Translations under genes and position numbers: made by a program
The notes under the pieces: model-generated
Seen by the model: only the letters and a program-made list of their open reading frames with translations
What the model was told of the DNA's origin: nothing
Databases searched by the model: none
Source of the DNA: Escherichia phage kaaroe
DNA: 64,000 nucleotides
Sequence record: MN850574.1
Direction: 5' to 3' (one strand)
Shown here: piece by piece, positions 42,385-46,898 of the stretch
How the letters are laid out: each line of letters opens with the position of its first letter
How positions within the stretch are numbered: position 1 is the first letter of the stretch

Positions 42385-42394
42385 GGTGATTATT

Positions 42395-42922
42395 ATGGAA
42401 TGGGAAGTTGGTAAAACTTACAAGATTGAATGCGAAGCGTCGAAAGCCGAACTGACTAAATTTTCGTCGTCTATTAACAGATGTATTGTTGACTTGTTGG
42501 CTGGTCGCCCGTTTAGGGTAGAAGACCTTGACGATGATGGTGATGTTAGAGAAATTACTATTATTGGTAGTGATTTCGACTCTATGACGTTAAAAGAATC
42601 CCCTATTGGTTGTTCTGGTGTGTGGTTTTGGTCGGGTGAGCGTCGTTTCTTTACCGAAGTTACTATTGAACCTAAGATTCCAGATTCAGAAGAAAAAGAA
42701 GAAGACCTAACTTTAGAACGCCTGGGTCTGCTTATGGAAGCCTACGACATTCAGTTGATCGATAAGATGGGGTTACATAATAGCATTGCCAAAATTACTA
42801 CCCTAGAAGGTATTAAGAGCGTACTGGATGGTATGCCTAGCCGGATCGGTGCTATCAGAGAATACAAACAAACGCGCGACCGTATGATCCAATTAGAATC
42901 ACGTATCAAAAATGAGAGATGA
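42395..42922 (+). CDS. WExGKTY-family protein, paralog 1
   Basis: N-terminus MEWEVGKTYKIE; coiled-coil C-terminus; first of four tandem paralogs. Confidence 0.55.
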   Translation: MEWEVGKTYKIECEASKAELTKFSSSINRCIVDLLAGRPFRVEDLDDDGDVREITIIGSDFDSMTLKESPIGCSGVWFWSGERRFFTEVTIEPKIPDSEEKEEDLTLERLGLLMEAYDIQLIDKMGLHNSIAKITTLEGIKSVLDGMPSRIGAIREYKQTRDRMIQLESRIKNER

Positions 42923-42926
42923 TATT

Positions 42927-43391
42927 ATGAAATGGGAAGCTGGTAAGACCTATGCGTGGAAAGATGTAAAAGATGCAAACCAATTTTTTAAATGGTATGA
43001 TGTTGATTATTTGAAATATCTGCGATTACCGTTTAAAGTTGCGTCGGTTGATGCGAAAAAAGGATACGTGCGGTCTGTTTATCTTCATGATGGAACTTAT
43101 ATGAGTTCAACCGATGTAGGTCTATCTTGTTGGTTTCTGGATCATGACCGTAGCAGATTTGAAGAAATTATTATTCCAGAAGAATCTAAATTAATTGACC
43201 TTCTCAAATTGGCGATGGATAATTATAAAATTCGCTTTGAATGCAAATCACATGCGGCTATCGGTGCTAACGCCTTGCGTCATATCTCCAGTTTTGAAGA
43301 GTTGAAAGATTTTCTTGACAAAATGCCGGAAAGAGTGCAAGCTATACAGGAAGCTGAGAAAGCATTAAACGAACTTGATAAAATCGGTTAA
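42927..43391 (+). CDS. WExGKTY-family protein, paralog 2
   Basis: MKWEAGKTYAWKD; C-terminal ALNELDKIG. Confidence 0.55.
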   Translation: MKWEAGKTYAWKDVKDANQFFKWYDVDYLKYLRLPFKVASVDAKKGYVRSVYLHDGTYMSSTDVGLSCWFLDHDRSRFEEIIIPEESKLIDLLKLAMDNYKIRFECKSHAAIGANALRHISSFEELKDFLDKMPERVQAIQEAEKALNELDKIG

Positions 43392-43403
43392 GGGGAATAT
43401 ATT

Positions 43404-44228
43404 ATGAAATGGGAAATTGGTAAAACTTACACTTGGAAAGATGAAAACGCGAAAACTGAGTTTATTACTAACGGAGAAGGTGTTCTTTCTCCACTTAACA
43501 GCGATATCAGTGCAGCTATTGGTGACAAGCCATTTACCATCATCGAGATCGAGGGTAACGGTTGGATTGATGCAATAGAGCTAGACGGTGTTTATCATAC
43601 GGCGAAAACTGCTACAGGAAAAGACATTTGGACTGCAACATATTTCTTTAGTCCATTCGATAGAAAATTCTTTCGTGAAGTTGAAGAAGTTCCCCAGAAA
43701 TGGGAAGTTGGTAAAACTTATACTTGGAAAGATGCGAATGCTATGACCGACTTCTGTCATTATGCTGAAAACGTATCTAACCTTAATTATGTTATTGCAC
43801 GAGCAATAAATTATAGACCTTTTACTGTTAAAAATGTTAGTCCATGTGGGCAAGTTAATGTAATTGAAATTGATGGTAAAGACCATACTCTAATGAGTGC
43901 AACCGAAGATAGCGACCATAAAGGAACTAGCTGGTTTATTGATTCTGATAGAAAATTCTTTCGTGAAGTAGAAGAATTGGAAGTTATAACCACTGATTCT
44001 AAGATCGTTGGACAGTTGAAACGTCTGTTTAGTAGTCGTTATGGCCTGACAATGGTTAAATTTAGCGAAGCAAATGAAGGTAAAACCTTTGAACGTTTCG
44101 ATGATTTCATCGCAGCACTTGACAAGATGGACGAAATAATGCAAGATCGCCAGAAGATTAAAGACCTTCAAGAAGACATTAAACGTCGTGAAGTTGAATT
44201 TTTGATTGGTAAAGAGCGAGGTTGGTAA
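43404..44228 (+). CDS. WExGKTY-family protein, paralog 3 (internally duplicated)
   Basis: MKWEIGKTYTWKD and second copy QKWEVGKTYTWKD, each followed by RKFFREVEE. Confidence 0.55.
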   Translation: MKWEIGKTYTWKDENAKTEFITNGEGVLSPLNSDISAAIGDKPFTIIEIEGNGWIDAIELDGVYHTAKTATGKDIWTATYFFSPFDRKFFREVEEVPQKWEVGKTYTWKDANAMTDFCHYAENVSNLNYVIARAINYRPFTVKNVSPCGQVNVIEIDGKDHTLMSATEDSDHKGTSWFIDSDRKFFREVEELEVITTDSKIVGQLKRLFSSRYGLTMVKFSEANEGKTFERFDDFIAALDKMDEIMQDRQKIKDLQEDIKRREVEFLIGKERGW

Positions 44229-44229
44229 T

Positions 44230-44706
44230 ATGTTTGTTGTTGGCATGACCTATCAGTGGAAAAACGAACAAGCGCGTAAAGCCTTTGCAACCAGTGATGC
44301 GAATCGTGTGATCTCCGAGTTTATCGGGGACCGTCAGTTTAAAGTCTTAGCTATTGATTCATCTACTATACCTGAATATGTTTCTGTGATTGAAATCGAT
44401 GGTAAGGCTTACCAGTGTCCAGACAATGAAAAGGTTTATCTTTATGCTTGTAATTGGTTTTCACCTACCGAAGATCAATATTTTAAAGTAGTATCAGCAG
44501 AACTATCATCCGAAGCAATGATGCAACAATTCTTCAATAACTACGAAGTTTCTGTGCGTCGCTATGGCGAAGAAGAAGTGTTTAAAATCGATGATTACAA
44601 TCAGTTTAAACGAGTATTCGCCACTAAGTTGCAGCGTGACTTTGAACGTGACCAACGGATCAAGGAACTGGAAGAAGAACTAGAAAGATTAAAGGCTGAG
44701 AAATGA
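44230..44706 (+). CDS. WExGKTY-family protein, paralog 4
   Basis: MFVVGMTYQWKNEQARKAF; C-terminal LEEELERLKAEK. Confidence 0.55.
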   Translation: MFVVGMTYQWKNEQARKAFATSDANRVISEFIGDRQFKVLAIDSSTIPEYVSVIEIDGKAYQCPDNEKVYLYACNWFSPTEDQYFKVVSAELSSEAMMQQFFNNYEVSVRRYGEEEVFKIDDYNQFKRVFATKLQRDFERDQRIKELEEELERLKAEK

Positions 44707-44972
44707 TCGAGATATACGGTATACCGAAAGAGGCTTATCATTGTTATGGTTGTATTAGTGCAATGAAGCTACTGGATGATCTGGGTATTCCGTATACACT
44801 TAAACCAGTATTCAAGCAGGTCGGGGTTGACATTATTCCCGACCGTGATATGATTGAAGAACTGGCGGGGAGGCTGAACTCAAAGAGCCTCCGGTTTGTA
44901 TACCCCCAGATATTCATTGACAACGAGCACATTGGAGGCTATAAAGAACTGAGGGCGATTTATGATTATTGA
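44703..44972 (+). CDS. glutaredoxin-like protein (NrdH-like)
   Basis: CYGC redox motif near N-terminus; ...IFIDNEHIGGY... glutaredoxin-fold signature. Confidence 0.65.
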   Translation: MIEIYGIPKEAYHCYGCISAMKLLDDLGIPYTLKPVFKQVGVDIIPDRDMIEELAGRLNSKSLRFVYPQIFIDNEHIGGYKELRAIYDY

Positions 44973-45120
44973 GAATTTAGTTTCGGTATTCATTATTGCT
45001 TTATTTGCTATAATGGCTTTACCGTTGAAGAAGTGTAAACACTGTAACGGAACAGGATTGCGTGGTGATGGGTGTTGCGCTCATTGTCATGGATCTGGTA
45101 AAGTAAGTATCATTAAGTAA
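44962..45120 (+). CDS. membrane-anchored miniprotein with DnaJ-type zinc finger (52 aa)
   Basis: N-terminal TM helix then CKHCNGTG and CAHCHGSG (two CxxCxGxG repeats); below track cutoff. Confidence 0.45.
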   Translation: MIIENLVSVFIIALFAIMALPLKKCKHCNGTGLRGDGCCAHCHGSGKVSIIK

Positions 45121-45141: not shown

Positions 45142-45429
45142 ATGTTAGTACACAATGCAATCGCACACATGGTTTATTCTCGATTTGGGCGCATGGAAGA
45201 AATCAATATTACCGACGCAGATTTAGATCTGATGCAAGTCGAAGGCCAGACATATCTGAAAAATAACGGCGTGAATATCGGTAAAGCGCGTGTGCGTGAA
45301 TTGTTGGTTGAATATATTCTCTCTGAATTTGGCATTAGTGCTTTCGGTGTGAAAGAGATTGCACCTAAGCGCGAAATTTCTGATAAAATGATCAAGAAAT
45401 GCCAGAAAGAACGACGTAAGGGTTTCTAA
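45142..45429 (+). CDS. hypothetical protein (95 aa)
   Basis: ATG with GAGGAATATATTATG RBS (track ORF begins TTG 45124). Confidence 0.5.
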   Translation: MLVHNAIAHMVYSRFGRMEEINITDADLDLMQVEGQTYLKNNGVNIGKARVRELLVEYILSEFGISAFGVKEIAPKREISDKMIKKCQKERRKGF

Positions 45430-46898
45430 TGAAGATTGAAACATTAATCGCATTGCCAGCGGCGGGGAAAACTGATGCTATACTTTCCCACGTCCTAGAG
45501 ACAAAAGAAAAAGCGGTTATTGCTTCGCCATCTCGTGTTTTAAGTGAACAATCTTACAATAAGTTTAAAAGAATGGGCGGTCGTGCTGTCTTGATTGATA
45601 GCACAAGACTAAGAAGCCTTAAGACAGTGCAAGCGTCGATAATGCAATCAGTTAAAGATGGTGCTGATGTGATATTCATTACACATACAGCGTTATCTAA
45701 TATGGAACGTTCAAAAATGTTTGGTGATTATGCTCTTTACATTGATGAAGTTCCTCAACTGGTTGAATTTAATGAGTATCCGTTTAAGTCTAATCTTGAA
45801 CTTATCACGAAGCATTGCGAACCAATCGCCGACGAATCGGAATGCCTACAGAACTTAGTTCTAAAAGACTCTGAGAAGGCCGCTATCAAAGAAAAGATAG
45901 AAAGTGCGAAGGATGGTACTGATATGATCGATTCTTCTCTTAGAGGGCTTTATGAGGCGTTATTAGAGAAGAAAATCAACGTTATGGTAAAACATAACGA
46001 AGGACACCGGAAGAATGGGTCGAAAATTGTTTTCTTGAACGATAACAAACACGGTACGTGGGGAGACTTTAAAAAGGTTACGATAGCATGTGCAAATCTC
46101 TTTGATACATATAGTGGGAAGTATCTACGATACTATGCAAATTGCGATTTTGTTCCGAGTGCGCTAGAATCCAGACTATATTTCAAAGAGTATAAAAATA
46201 CAGATAGAGTTAATATCATCCTTATGACGGACTCTGAACGATGGTCGCGTCACCAGTCAGAAACAAACAATACCTTTGAACGTCTTGTTGATATGGTTAA
46301 AAATGAATGTGGCGATGACTTCATTTATACCGTGAATCGGGACCGTGAAGCGTGTACAAATGGTATTGGTGAGCGGATACCTTACGGGTCTTATGGTCTT
46401 AACTCTTACATTCATCATAAAAATGTTGCTGTGATGTTCAGCTTTAACCCTCAACGATGGGAGATTGATATTTTAAAAGGTCTTGCTAATAGTTGTGATC
46501 TCCCGACAAACGAGTTTTTGAAAGCGCGTCATGTGTCTGATTATCTGGAACCAGCATTTCAATTATGTTTGCGTTGTAACCTGAGAGACAACGAGAGCAA
46601 GGAGAATGTTAATCTATATGTTCCTGATTGGGCGTTGGTGGATTATCTAAAAACGTTTCTGCCTAATGCCAATGTAATAACAGATCGAATGATTCCGCTA
46701 GAATGTGGTGAACGTAAAGGGCGAAAATCATTTAAAAAGATGTTCGACTTTAACGAGCAAGAGAATGCAAGATTTAACGGATTTAAGTACCGCATGAAGA
46801 AAAAAGGAAAAACTCTTGATCCGTCTGACGGCGAATCTGTAGAGATGGTTAGAGTGTGGATAACTAAGCAAAGAAAGTATAATGGTAATGGGGAATAG
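45429..46898 (+). CDS. P-loop NTPase, helicase-like (function unknown)
   Basis: 489 aa; Walker A ALPAAGKTD at residues 8-16, Walker B ALYIDEV; occupies the position of alpha-gt in T4. Confidence 0.6.
   Translation: MKIETLIALPAAGKTDAILSHVLETKEKAVIASPSRVLSEQSYNKFKRMGGRAVLIDSTRLRSLKTVQASIMQSVKDGADVIFITHTALSNMERSKMFGDYALYIDEVPQLVEFNEYPFKSNLELITKHCEPIADESECLQNLVLKDSEKAAIKEKIESAKDGTDMIDSSLRGLYEALLEKKINVMVKHNEGHRKNGSKIVFLNDNKHGTWGDFKKVTIACANLFDTYSGKYLRYYANCDFVPSALESRLYFKEYKNTDRVNIILMTDSERWSRHQSETNNTFERLVDMVKNECGDDFIYTVNRDREACTNGIGERIPYGSYGLNSYIHHKNVAVMFSFNPQRWEIDILKGLANSCDLPTNEFLKARHVSDYLEPAFQLCLRCNLRDNESKENVNLYVPDWALVDYLKTFLPNANVITDRMIPLECGERKGRKSFKKMFDFNEQENARFNGFKYRMKKKGKTLDPSDGESVEMVRVWITKQRKYNGNGE

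What the first reader, a model, noticed from the sequence alone, without database searches (positions are those of the whole stretch)
44962..45120. Membrane-anchored 52-aa miniprotein with two DnaJ-type CxxCxGxG zinc-finger repeats
A hydrophobic N-terminal helix is followed by CKHCNGTG...CAHCHGSG, the repeat found in the zinc-finger domain of DnaJ/Hsp40. The ORF overlaps the glutaredoxin gene stop. It might recruit or interfere with host chaperone or redox machinery at the membrane.
Basis: seen in the sequence. Interest (0 to 1): 0.45.

Follow-up and report, generated by a model that had tools for sequence, protein, structure and literature searches.

The report
Membrane-tethered mini zinc finger of phage RB49
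This is a real, conserved 52-residue phage gene (RB49 ORF046) that most likely encodes a membrane-anchored, single-zinc DnaJ/anti-TRAP-type finger facing the cytoplasm; it is already annotated, its function is unknown, and it lacks everything a DnaJ chaperone needs apart from the cysteine motif.

Summary
Window 44962-45120 (+) encodes a 52-aa protein with a very hydrophobic N-terminal helix and two CxxCxGxG motifs six residues apart. Its start overlaps the stop of an NrdH-type glutaredoxin gene by 11 nt. The window is a Krischvirus (RB49-like T4-type coliphage), and the ORF is RB49p046/ORF046c, annotated "hypothetical" or "putative membrane protein".

The gene is real:
- It is intact in all 58 Krischvirus records.
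- dN/dS is 0.14-0.41 between divergent alleles.
- All eight motif residues are invariant.
- The same architecture occurs at 30-45% identity in Ounavirinae, always just upstream of rIIA, with dN/dS of 0.05-0.11.

The family profile hits the DnaJ Cys-rich domain (1EXK, E = 1.4e-8). The AF2 finger superposes on anti-TRAP at 0.7-0.8 A. No curated family threshold is reached, and there is no J domain.

Most likely it is an N-out/C-in single-pass protein with one cytoplasmic Zn(Cys)4 knuckle that binds a partner at the inner membrane. It behaves as an accessory, cassette-swapped gene. The partner and the function are unknown. The chaperone and redox ideas remain untested, and the glutaredoxin linkage is lineage-specific.

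Verdict: modest interest; a new member of a known kind.

The parts
44962..45120 (+). Miniprotein gene (52 codons plus TAA); equals RB49p046 / RB49ORF046c; member of phrog_3931
   Evidence: ORF list. RB49 annotation NP_891617.1 'hypothetical protein' and 'putative membrane protein' in W115. phrog_3931 E = 4.3e-10. dN/dS 0.14 against L011 and 0.41 against L014.
44951..44955 (+). Shine-Dalgarno GAGGG, 6 nt upstream of the ATG
   Evidence: Sequence. Invariant in the divergent alleles L011 and L014 and present in L017.
44962..44972 (+). 11-nt overlap between the miniprotein start and the nrdH stop (ATGATTATTGA); probable translational coupling
   Evidence: The same 11-nt overlap is seen in L011, L014 and L017.
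44968..45024 (+). Hydrophobic N-terminal helix (about residues 3-21), inferred single transmembrane anchor; no K/R before it, KK after it
   Evidence: Mean KD 2.49 over 19 residues. There are 0 K/R in the N flank of 14/14 family members. AF2 helix at 3-18. An in-frame 3-codon indel is tolerated here in L011 and L014.
45034..45057 (+). CxxCxGxG motif 1 (C25 K H C28 N G30 T G32)
   Evidence: C25, C28, G30 and G32 are invariant in alignments A1, A2 and A3.
45076..45099 (+). CxxCxGxG motif 2 (C39 A H C42 H G44 S G46), 6 residues after motif 1
   Evidence: C39, C42, G44 and G46 are invariant. The finger superposes on anti-TRAP 3LD0/3LCZ at rmsd 0.7-0.8 A over 24-26 residues.
44703..44972 (+). Upstream neighbour: NrdH-type glutaredoxin (89 aa, CYGC active site). 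It is context, not shown to be a functional partner.
   Evidence: Pfam Glutaredoxin 6.9e-5, phrog_22 1.7e-13, RB49 nrdH annotation.
45142..45429 (+). Downstream neighbour: gp55.2 homologue (DUF7570), which marks the other edge of the variable slot
   Evidence: Pfam DUF7570 7.3e-29. RB49 annotation. Sequence identity resumes exactly at its SD in L014.

Best explanation
The ORF is a genuine accessory gene of RB49-type (Krischvirus) phages. It lies in a long co-directional run of genes and is translated by coupling to nrdH.

The product inserts into the inner membrane through its N-terminal helix, with only about 4 residues in the periplasm and the C-terminal 28 residues in the cytoplasm (N-out/C-in). 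There, C25, C28, C39 and C42 bind one Zn2+, forming a single DnaJ-CR/anti-TRAP-type zinc knuckle.

With no J domain and no enzyme-like features, the finger most likely acts as a small protein-binding module held at the membrane. It would capture, inhibit or localise a partner protein during infection. That would make it a host-interaction or membrane-process accessory factor, not a chaperone.

Shown: the gene is real, it is under selection, the motif is invariant, it is related to DnaJ-CR, it has an anti-TRAP-like fold, and it undergoes cassette-like allele exchange.

Inferred: the topology, zinc binding, the protein-binding role and expression timing. The partner is unknown.
For: Real gene:
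- It is annotated in RB49.
- tblastn finds it full-length at >=95% identity in 58 Krischvirus records.
- Window vs L011 gives 13 synonymous vs 9 nonsynonymous changes, dN/dS 0.14, with an in-frame indel.
- Felixounavirus alleles give dN/dS 0.05-0.11.

Architecture conserved across two unrelated phage groups:
- Alignments A1-A3 have all 8 motif residues invariant and a hydrophobic N-terminus throughout.

Zinc-finger type:
- The profile hits 1EXK (DnaJ CR) at E = 1.4e-8 and anti-TRAP 3LCZ at 0.026.
- Foldseek's top PDB hits are anti-TRAP 3LD0/3LCZ (prob 0.97/0.89, rmsd 0.7-0.8 A), then 1EXK.
- 12/14 members hit PF00684 and 3/14 hit PF15777.

Topology:
- There is no K/R in the N-terminal flank of 14/14 members, and K/R follows the helix in most.
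- There is no signal-peptide n-region.
- Zinc fingers need the reducing cytoplasm (established knowledge).

Protein-binding rather than nucleic-acid-binding:
- The net charge of the finger is not conserved. It is +5 in the window protein, while the Suspvirus (P0006) and Kolesnikvirus (P0008) alleles are net acidic.

Accessory or host-interaction character:
- In L014 the gene is 50% identical (dS 0.92), while nrdH, 55.2, the helicase and gp55 are 94-99.8% identical.
- The divergent stretch is bounded exactly by the two Shine-Dalgarno sites.
- T4 has unrelated ORFs in the same slot.

Precedents for function:
- Anti-TRAP is a 53-aa protein of this fold that works purely by binding another protein (PDB names).
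- Arabidopsis FIP has a TM anchor plus two CxxCxGxG repeats on the stromal side and binds FtsH5 (PMC5915565).
Against: - There is no direct evidence of expression, membrane insertion, zinc binding or any partner.
- The AF2 model is only moderately confident (mean pLDDT 71, pTM 0.37). Foldseek E-values to the PDB are not significant because the domain is tiny.
- The positive-inside signal is weak in some alleles. P0009 has no K/R in the 15 residues after the predicted helix, and P0006 has 1 K/R against 5 D/E.
- Gene neighbourhood gives two different, lineage-specific neighbours, a glutaredoxin or rIIA, so it does not point to a single partner.
- Frameshifted alleles exist in a few Felixounavirus records, so the gene may be dispensable.
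- Plant proteins of the same architecture (CYO1/SCO2, LQY1) are reported as disulfide isomerases, not simple binders (PMC4754418).
Confidence: 0.4

Rival explanations
1. Redox partner of the phage glutaredoxin. The CxxC pairs would be redox-active rather than, or as well as, zinc-binding. The protein would act as a membrane-tethered thiol-disulfide oxidoreductase or isomerase, recycled by the translationally coupled NrdH, as reported for the plant membrane DnaJ-like finger proteins CYO1/SCO2 and LQY1.
For: - The 11-nt overlap with nrdH is kept in four divergent Krischvirus-type alleles: window, L011, L014 and L017.
- The top, sub-threshold Pfam hit for the window protein is GRXCR1-2_C, the Cys-rich domain fused to a glutaredoxin domain in GRXCR proteins (E = 0.0036).
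- CYO1/SCO2 (2 repeats) and LQY1 (TM plus 4 repeats) have disulfide-isomerase activity in vitro (PMC4754418).
Against: - The pairing is not conserved. In Ounavirinae the upstream gene (phrog_4262 / phrog_27920) has no glutaredoxin or thioredoxin signal.
- The GRXCR hit covers only 12 residues at 17.6 bits against a cut-off of 26, and only 1 of 14 members shows it.
- In the closest solved relatives, DnaJ CR and anti-TRAP, the four Cys are structural zinc ligands (PDB entries; established knowledge).
Confidence: 0.15
2. Chaperone-related factor. A membrane-tethered DnaJ-type finger would hold unfolded or membrane-protein substrates, or would mimic or compete with host DnaJ to divert DnaK at the membrane.
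For: - There is sequence relatedness to the DnaJ Cys-rich domain.
- Depositors annotate homologues as 'heat shock protein, DnaJ-like' (phage Mushroom) and 'dnaJ chaperone protein' (phage Panisse).
- J-less DnaJ-like finger proteins are described as Hsp70-independent holdases (PMC5915565).
Against: - There is no J domain or HPD motif, no G/F region and no C-terminal domain.
- Only 2 of 4 repeats are present, and the score of 14.6 bits is far below Pfam's 32.7 and NCBIfam's 377 for DnaJ.
- The deposited 'dnaJ' names are motif-based transfers, not tests.
- A 28-residue finger offers little surface for holdase activity.
Confidence: 0.12
3. Membrane component working with RIIA/RIIB. The miniprotein would tether or regulate the membrane-associated RII proteins that protect infection against abortive-infection systems.
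For: In every Ounavirinae-type locus examined the gene lies immediately upstream of rIIA-rIIB. This holds across alleles less than 50% identical to each other and whether or not the upstream 111-aa gene is present. The loci are L003, L004 and L006-L010, L018 (NAMPT - mini - HNH - rIIA) and L019 (mini - rIIA).
Against: - In Krischvirus the gene is not next to rIIA. It sits between nrdH and 55.2.
- Conserved order within one phage subfamily may simply reflect shared ancestry.
- No interaction data exist.
Confidence: 0.1
4. Periplasm-facing, disulfide-bonded Cys-rich peptide (N-in/C-out, or a cleaved signal peptide), for example a superinfection-exclusion or envelope-acting factor.
For: - Many bacterial proteins found by the same profile have an 'MKK...' hydrophobic leader followed by CxxCxGxG repeats, and these look exported (P0051, P0100, P0106-P0108, P0160).
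- Some phage alleles have acidic C-terminal domains.
Against: - The phage family has no basic n-region. There are 0 K/R before the helix in 14/14 members, and an acidic residue is usually at the N-terminal tip.
- K/R follow the helix in most alleles.
- The window protein's C-terminal domain is +5 net, which is unfavourable for export.
Confidence: 0.08
5. Spurious ORF: a chance reading frame with no product.
For: It is very short, has no match above a curated family threshold, and shows frameshifted alleles in a few Felixounavirus records.
Against: - dN/dS is 0.05-0.41 in two lineages.
- Indels are in-frame.
- The SD and start are conserved.
- The 8 motif residues are invariant at 30-45% overall identity.
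- The motif count is far above shuffles.
Confidence: 0.02

Closest known systems
Anti-TRAP (RtpA) of Bacillus (PDB 2BX9, 3LCZ, 3LD0; Pfam PF15777)
   Same: - It is about 53 aa with two DnaJ-type Cys motifs and the same predicted knuckle.
- It is the best Foldseek PDB match (rmsd 0.7-0.8 A over 24-26 residues, 35-38% identity).
- It works purely by binding another protein, with no J domain.
   Different: - Anti-TRAP is soluble and has a C-terminal helix for oligomerisation. The phage protein instead has an N-terminal hydrophobic anchor and no C-terminal helix.
- Scores are far below the family cut-off (12.8 vs 65 bits).
- There is no link to tryptophan regulation.
Cysteine-rich (zinc-finger) domain of DnaJ/Hsp40 type I (PDB 1EXK; Pfam PF00684)
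   Same: It has the CxxCxGxG signature. The family profile matches 1EXK at E = 1.4e-8, aligning without gaps to repeats 3 and 4, which share the same 6-residue spacing.
   Different: DnaJ has four repeats forming two zinc centres, inserted in a J-domain / G-F / CTD protein. Here there are only two repeats (one possible zinc centre per chain), no J domain, a membrane anchor instead, and a score below the gathering threshold (14.6 vs 32.7 bits).
Arabidopsis FIP (FtsH5-interacting protein, At5g02160)
   Same: After transit-peptide removal it is a ~9 kDa protein with one TM helix, a lumenal (outside) N-terminus and a stromal (cytoplasm-equivalent) C4 finger with two CxxCxGxG repeats. It has no J domain and acts by binding a membrane protease (PMC5915565). 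This is the closest match in architecture and inferred topology.
   Different: It is a plant chloroplast protein reported only in land plants. Homology to the phage family was not tested here because no sequence was at hand. Nothing links the phage protein to FtsH.
Plant thylakoid DnaJ-like zinc-finger proteins CYO1/SCO2 and LQY1
   Same: They are membrane-bound, J-less proteins with 2 (CYO1) or 4 (LQY1) CxxCxGxG repeats (PMC4754418). 4-repeat TM-anchored phage-type relatives also exist (P0016, P0047).
   Different: They are reported as protein disulfide isomerases acting on photosystem subunits. They are larger and eukaryotic, and no redox activity has been tested for the phage protein.
PHROG phrog_3931 (phage protein family, unknown function)
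   Same: The window protein matches at E = 4.3e-10 over residues 7-48 against positions 15-56 of a 59-position profile. This is the sequence family it belongs to.
   Different: No function is attached to the family, so membership adds no mechanism.

Membership tests
DnaJ/Hsp40 (type I) co-chaperone | N-terminal J domain with HPD motif that stimulates the DnaK ATPase | tested here: not met
   The 52-aa protein consists of a helix plus a finger only. There is no Pfam DnaJ (J-domain) hit even at E <= 1. NCBIfam DnaJ_bact scores 18.8 bits against a cut-off of 377.
DnaJ/Hsp40 (type I) co-chaperone | Cys-rich domain with four CxxCxGxG repeats forming two zinc centres (Pfam PF00684 gathering score 32.7 bits) | tested here: not met
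   There are only two repeats. The window protein scores 14.6 bits. 12/14 family members hit the model, but all below threshold (best E = 3.3e-5).
DnaJ-CR-type zinc knuckle (motif and fold level) | CxxCxGxG motifs with invariant Cys and Gly, and detectable profile similarity to a solved DnaJ CR domain | tested here: met
   C25, C28, G30, G32, C39, C42, G44 and G46 are invariant. The profile hits 1EXK at E = 1.4e-8.
DnaJ-CR-type zinc knuckle (motif and fold level) | Binds Zn2+ through the four cysteines | not testable with these tools
   Inferred from the anti-TRAP/DnaJ structural match. It needs metal analysis of purified protein.
Anti-TRAP (PF15777 / NCBIfam NF058604 RtpA) | Family score above cut-off (65 bits) | tested here: not met
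   12.8 bits, E = 0.097. Only 3/14 members hit PF15777, with best E = 2.8e-4.
Anti-TRAP (PF15777 / NCBIfam NF058604 RtpA) | Single Zn(Cys)4 knuckle fold of about 25 residues | tested here: met
   Foldseek vs 3LD0/3LCZ/2BX9 gives rmsd 0.6-0.8 A over 23-26 residues and prob 0.97/0.89/0.38. The model has moderate confidence (pLDDT 82 in the finger core).
Anti-TRAP (PF15777 / NCBIfam NF058604 RtpA) | Soluble protein with a C-terminal helix that mediates trimer/dodecamer assembly | tested here: not met
   Only 6 residues follow motif 2 and no C-terminal helix is predicted. Instead there is an N-terminal hydrophobic helix.
PHROG phrog_3931 | Significant full-length match to the family profile | tested here: met
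   E = 4.3e-10, 40.5 bits, residues 7-48 against profile positions 15-56 of 59.
Single-pass inner-membrane protein, N-out/C-in | One hydrophobic segment of at least 19 residues, with positive charges on the C-terminal side only | tested here: met
   Mean KD is 2.49 over 19 residues. K/R counts are 0 (N flank) vs 4 (first 15 C-flank residues) in the window protein, with 0 K/R in the N flank of 14/14 members. Actual insertion and orientation are not testable here.
Type IV pilin-like / N-terminal methylation motif (Pfam PF07963) | Short basic leader ending in Gly(-1), cleaved before F/M-x-x-x-E, with a score above 21.2 bits | tested here: not met
   The score is 9.7 bits, E = 0.87; Nolan et al. 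2006 listed the same weak hit at 0.43 (PMC1524935). There is no leader and no Gly(-1): the protein starts MIIEN.
Plant TM-anchored DnaJ-like finger proteins (FIP, CYO1/SCO2, LQY1) | TM helix followed by CxxCxGxG repeats, with no J domain | tested here: met
   The architecture matches the descriptions in PMC5915565 and PMC4754418.
Plant TM-anchored DnaJ-like finger proteins (FIP, CYO1/SCO2, LQY1) | Sequence homology beyond the motif; FtsH binding or PDI activity | not tested
Activities need experiments.

The most novel reading that the evidence does not exclude
The miniprotein may be the founding member of a class of phage host-takeover or anti-defence factors. In this reading it is a membrane-tethered one-zinc finger that docks onto a specific inner-membrane-associated host machine. 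One candidate is FtsH, by analogy with plant FIP. Another is a membrane-bound abortive-infection effector acting in the RIIA/RIIB pathway. Allele cassettes would be swapped between phages to track variation in the target.
Probability: 0.12. Interest if true: 0.6.

Novelty: new member of a known kind. Interest (0 to 1): 0.3.

Why it matters
Small phage membrane proteins are a largely uncharacterised reservoir of host-manipulating factors. This one is unusually tractable. It is 52 residues long, has an obvious metal site for loss-of-function mutants, and is conserved in two well-studied groups of E. coli and Salmonella phages (RB49-type and Felix O1-type). Its natural allele series is bounded by gene borders.

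If it has a specific partner, it would give a minimal membrane-tethered binder and a clue to the function of its neighbours, the RII proteins or NrdH. If not, it remains one more accessory ORF. Nothing here overturns current understanding.

Tried and rejected
- **Conserved glutaredoxin-miniprotein gene pair.** Rejected as a general rule. The Ounavirinae upstream genes have no Grx or Trx signal.
- **Homologue in T4 itself.** None found. The nrdH-55.2 slot holds four unrelated ORFs without CxxC.
- **Curated family assignment.** Pfam, NCBIfam and PADLOC give nothing above threshold.
- **Pilin-like N-terminus.** The weak N_methyl hit is rejected because there is no leader and no Gly(-1).
- **Late-promoter control.** There is no TATAAATA within 18 kb. 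Sigma-70-like and terminator scans are not above shuffles, so timing is unresolved.
- **IMG/VR scans.** The alignment was too divergent to search with. P0080 and P0118 gave one partial hit or none.
- **AFDB fold search, to retrieve plant FIP-like proteins.** The library was unavailable.
- **Literature.** No paper on the function of RB49 ORF046 or the Felix O1-type homologue was found. Searches for EMB2737/FtsHi and Tam37 were uninformative, so the weak PDB hit 8XKU_R and the Pfam hit zf-AtTam37 were not interpreted.
- **Nucleic-acid binding by a basic finger.** Rejected because charge is not conserved among alleles.
Full report
**1. What is there**

Window 44962-45120 (+) is an ATG-initiated ORF of 52 codons: MIIENLVSVFIIALFAIMALPLKKCKHCNGTGLRGDGCCAHCHGSGKVSIIK.
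- A GAGGG Shine-Dalgarno lies 6 nt upstream.
- The ATG sits inside the last codons of the preceding gene (44703-44972). The two genes overlap by 11 nt (ATGATTATTGA).
- The preceding gene is an NrdH-type glutaredoxin (Pfam Glutaredoxin 23.4 bits, just above the 22.9 cut-off; phrog_22 1.7e-13).
- The two CxxCxGxG motifs (45034-45057 and 45076-45099) are the only stop-free instances in the six-frame translation of all 64 kb. Composition-matched shuffles give a mean of 0.185 matches per window.

**2. Where it comes from**

The window is 98.5-99.3% identical to RB49-type T4-like coliphages (genus Krischvirus, Straboviridae).
- The ORF is RB49p046 / NP_891617.1, 'hypothetical protein'. Other depositors call it 'putative membrane protein'.
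- Nolan et al. 2006 listed RB49ORF046c with only a weak 'N-terminal methylation motif' Pfam hit. They reported DnaJ central-domain hits for other T4-like ORFs but not this one (PMC1524935).
- The gene lies in a long co-directional run: nrdG, four paralogous ORFs, nrdH, the miniprotein, 55.2, a helicase-like ORF, then the late sigma factor gp55.
- There is no late promoter or terminator nearby.
- By analogy with the T4 nrdH-55 region, which I know as early/middle (my own knowledge, not tested), it is probably expressed before late genes.

**3. Is it a real gene?** Yes.

- tblastn finds it full-length at >=95% identity in all 58 Krischvirus records that carry the region.
- Against a more distant allele in metagenomic contig L011 (87% aa identity over aligned positions; 82% by BLASTP) there are 13 synonymous and 9 nonsynonymous differences (dN/dS 0.14). 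There is also an in-frame 3-codon insertion in the hydrophobic helix, and only one replacement in the finger.
- A still more distant allele (P0080, 50% aa identity) occupies exactly the same slot in L014, with the same 11-nt overlap. A 44%-identical allele (P0118) again follows an NrdH-type gene with the same overlap.
- The same architecture occurs at 30-45% identity in Ounavirinae. It has a short acidic or neutral tip, a hydrophobic helix, and two CxxCxGxG motifs 6 residues apart in all but two of the 14 aligned alleles. The genera are Felixounavirus, Suspvirus and Kolesnikvirus.
- Within Felixounavirus the gene shows dN/dS of 0.05-0.11.
- Across all alignments the eight motif residues (C25, C28, G30, G32, C39, C42, G44, G46) are invariant.

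**4. What kind of protein**

No curated family reaches threshold.
- For the window protein, Pfam gives only sub-threshold hits: GRXCR1-2_C 0.0036, zf-AtTam37 0.0057 and DnaJ_CXXCXGXG 0.041.
- Across 14 family members, 12 hit DnaJ_CXXCXGXG (best 3.3e-5), 11 hit DUF5351 and 3 hit Anti-TRAP.
- NCBIfam and PADLOC add nothing above cut-off.
- The protein does belong to phrog_3931 (E = 4.3e-10), a phage family of unknown function.

The relationship to DnaJ-type fingers is nonetheless supported.
- A profile of the family hits the solved DnaJ Cys-rich domain 1EXK at E = 1.4e-8. It aligns gap-free to DnaJ repeats 3 and 4, which share the 6-residue spacing. Anti-TRAP scores 0.026.
- An AF2 model built on 10 sequences (mean pLDDT 71; 82 in the finger core) has a helix at residues 3-18 and a small beta-knuckle.
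- Its best PDB matches are anti-TRAP 3LD0/3LCZ (rmsd 0.7-0.8 A over 24-26 residues, probability 0.97/0.89), then 1EXK. E-values are weak because the domain is tiny.
- In the viral structure set the top hits are RB49 Q7Y3T0 itself and a long list of small uncharacterised or 'DnaJ-like' phage proteins.
- An exhaustive profile search of 1.8 billion representatives found 1,541 proteins at E <= 1e-3. Most are multi-repeat CxxCxGxG proteins. Only about ten representatives share the full TM-plus-two-repeat design, and a few have TM plus four repeats.

The finger is thus a minimal, one-zinc version of the DnaJ Cys-rich module. It is structurally closest to anti-TRAP. There is no J domain, G/F region or C-terminal domain, so it is not a DnaJ.

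**5. Topology (inferred)**

- The hydrophobic segment has a mean KD of 2.49 over 19 residues.
- None of 14 family members has a K or R before it. Most have K/R directly after it, KK in the window protein.
- There is no signal-peptide n-region.
- By the positive-inside rule (established knowledge) this predicts N-out/C-in, with the finger in the cytoplasm where zinc sites are stable.
- The signal is weak in some acidic alleles, so I put this at about 75%.
- Bacterial 'MKK...'-leader proteins found by the same profile probably have the opposite orientation and are a different group.

**6. Evolutionary behaviour**

- Between the window and L014 the miniprotein is 50% identical (dS 0.92, dN/dS 0.41). 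Its neighbours are much closer: nrdH 94%, 55.2 98%, the helicase-like gene 99.8% and gp55 99.4%.
- The nucleotide alignment shows near-perfect identity up to the miniprotein's Shine-Dalgarno, resuming exactly at the 55.2 Shine-Dalgarno. The whole gene behaves as a swapped cassette.
- T4 has four unrelated small ORFs, none with CxxC, in the same nrdH-55.2 slot.
- This is the pattern of an accessory gene in a plastic slot, as is often seen for host-interaction genes. That reading is an inference.

**7. Context**

There are two lineage-specific arrangements.
- Krischvirus type: glutaredoxin, miniprotein (coupled), 55.2.
- Ounavirinae type: NAMPT, sometimes a ~111-aa unknown gene, miniprotein, rIIA, rIIB. 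In one contig (L018) an HNH endonuclease sits between the miniprotein and rIIA. This order holds across alleles less than 50% identical to each other.
- The Ounavirinae upstream gene is not a glutaredoxin.

Neither neighbour is universal, so neither identifies the partner.

**8. Mechanism**

The best-supported reading is a membrane-tethered, cytoplasm-facing Zn(Cys)4 knuckle acting as a protein-binding module.
- Precedents are anti-TRAP, a 53-aa binder of this fold, and Arabidopsis FIP. FIP has a TM anchor, a lumenal N-terminus and a stromal two-repeat finger, and it binds FtsH5 (PMC5915565).
- The net charge of the finger varies from +5 to net acidic among alleles, which argues against nucleic-acid binding.
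- Rivals are a redox or PDI-like role with NrdH, a holdase or DnaK-related role, an RII-associated role, and a periplasmic disulfide peptide. The redox rival is supported by the coupling and by plant CYO1/SCO2 and LQY1 (PMC4754418), and weakened by the lineage specificity.
- A spurious ORF is excluded by the comparative data.

**9. Novelty and verdict**

- The ORF and its 'membrane' and 'DnaJ-like cysteine-rich' character are already present in public annotations.
- The kind, a J-less DnaJ-type finger with or without a TM anchor, is known.
- No function or literature exists for this phage family.
- I rate it a new member of a known kind and of modest interest. It has a small chance of being a specific host-targeting factor worth a simple deletion and pull-down experiment.

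Noticed in passing
window 42386-44706 (+): There are four tandem paralogous ORFs (178, 159, 274 and 166 aa). Most begin with a W-E/K-x-GKTY-x-W type domain, and the 274-aa one carries the domain twice. The last one matches phrog_5347 (2e-60) and has weak hits to 'goF mRNA metabolism modulator' families. Three of the four are only 67-75% identical to L014, while the flanking nrdG and nrdH are 94-97% identical.
   Followed up: partly
window 45429-46898 (+): This 489-aa P-loop / DEAD-like ORF (phrog_2467, unknown function) lies between 55.2 and gp55. It is 70% identical to L011 but 99.8% identical to L014. That is the opposite mosaic pattern to the miniprotein, so recombination breakpoints fall at gene borders throughout this region.
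   Followed up: partly
P0011, P0014, P0015, P0017 (63 aa) and P0013 (41 aa); Felixounavirus homologues: Several database entries of the Felix O1-type homologue are frameshifted at different positions into the same alternative frame and lose the finger. One (phage NJ12) lacks the helix. This reflects either occasional natural inactivation or homopolymer sequencing errors near the AAAAA run that encodes KK.
   Followed up: no
L015:1614-1904 and L016:5001-5291 (P0016); P0047: These metagenomic, phage-like contigs carry 96-98-aa relatives with the same kind of N-terminal helix but four CxxCxGxG repeats with short spacers. They amount to a membrane-tethered 'full' DnaJ-CR-like module. The neighbouring genes have no family hits.
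   Followed up: partly
L018:884-1378; L006:1328-1819; window-equivalent RB49p040: HNH homing-endonuclease genes are inserted at different points of otherwise syntenic regions. In L018 one sits between the miniprotein and rIIA. In phage Mushroom one sits between the PRPP synthetase and NAMPT genes.
   Followed up: no
window 44827-44854 (+): A sigma-70-like site with 11/12 consensus matches and an extended -10 TG lies inside nrdH, about 108 nt upstream of the miniprotein start. The overall count of such sites is not above shuffles, so its significance is unknown.
   Followed up: no
L012:1735-1983: In this short Logan contig the nrdH homologue has a divergent 82-aa C-terminus and no overlap with the miniprotein gene. 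This looks like a frameshift or assembly error, not a true variant.
   Followed up: no
family alignment A2 (residues 4, 7, 8 of the window protein): E4, L7 and S8 at the start of the hydrophobic helix are nearly invariant between Krischvirus and Ounavirinae alleles despite about 30-45% overall identity. This hints that the helix may do more than anchor, for example make an intramembrane contact.
   Followed up: no
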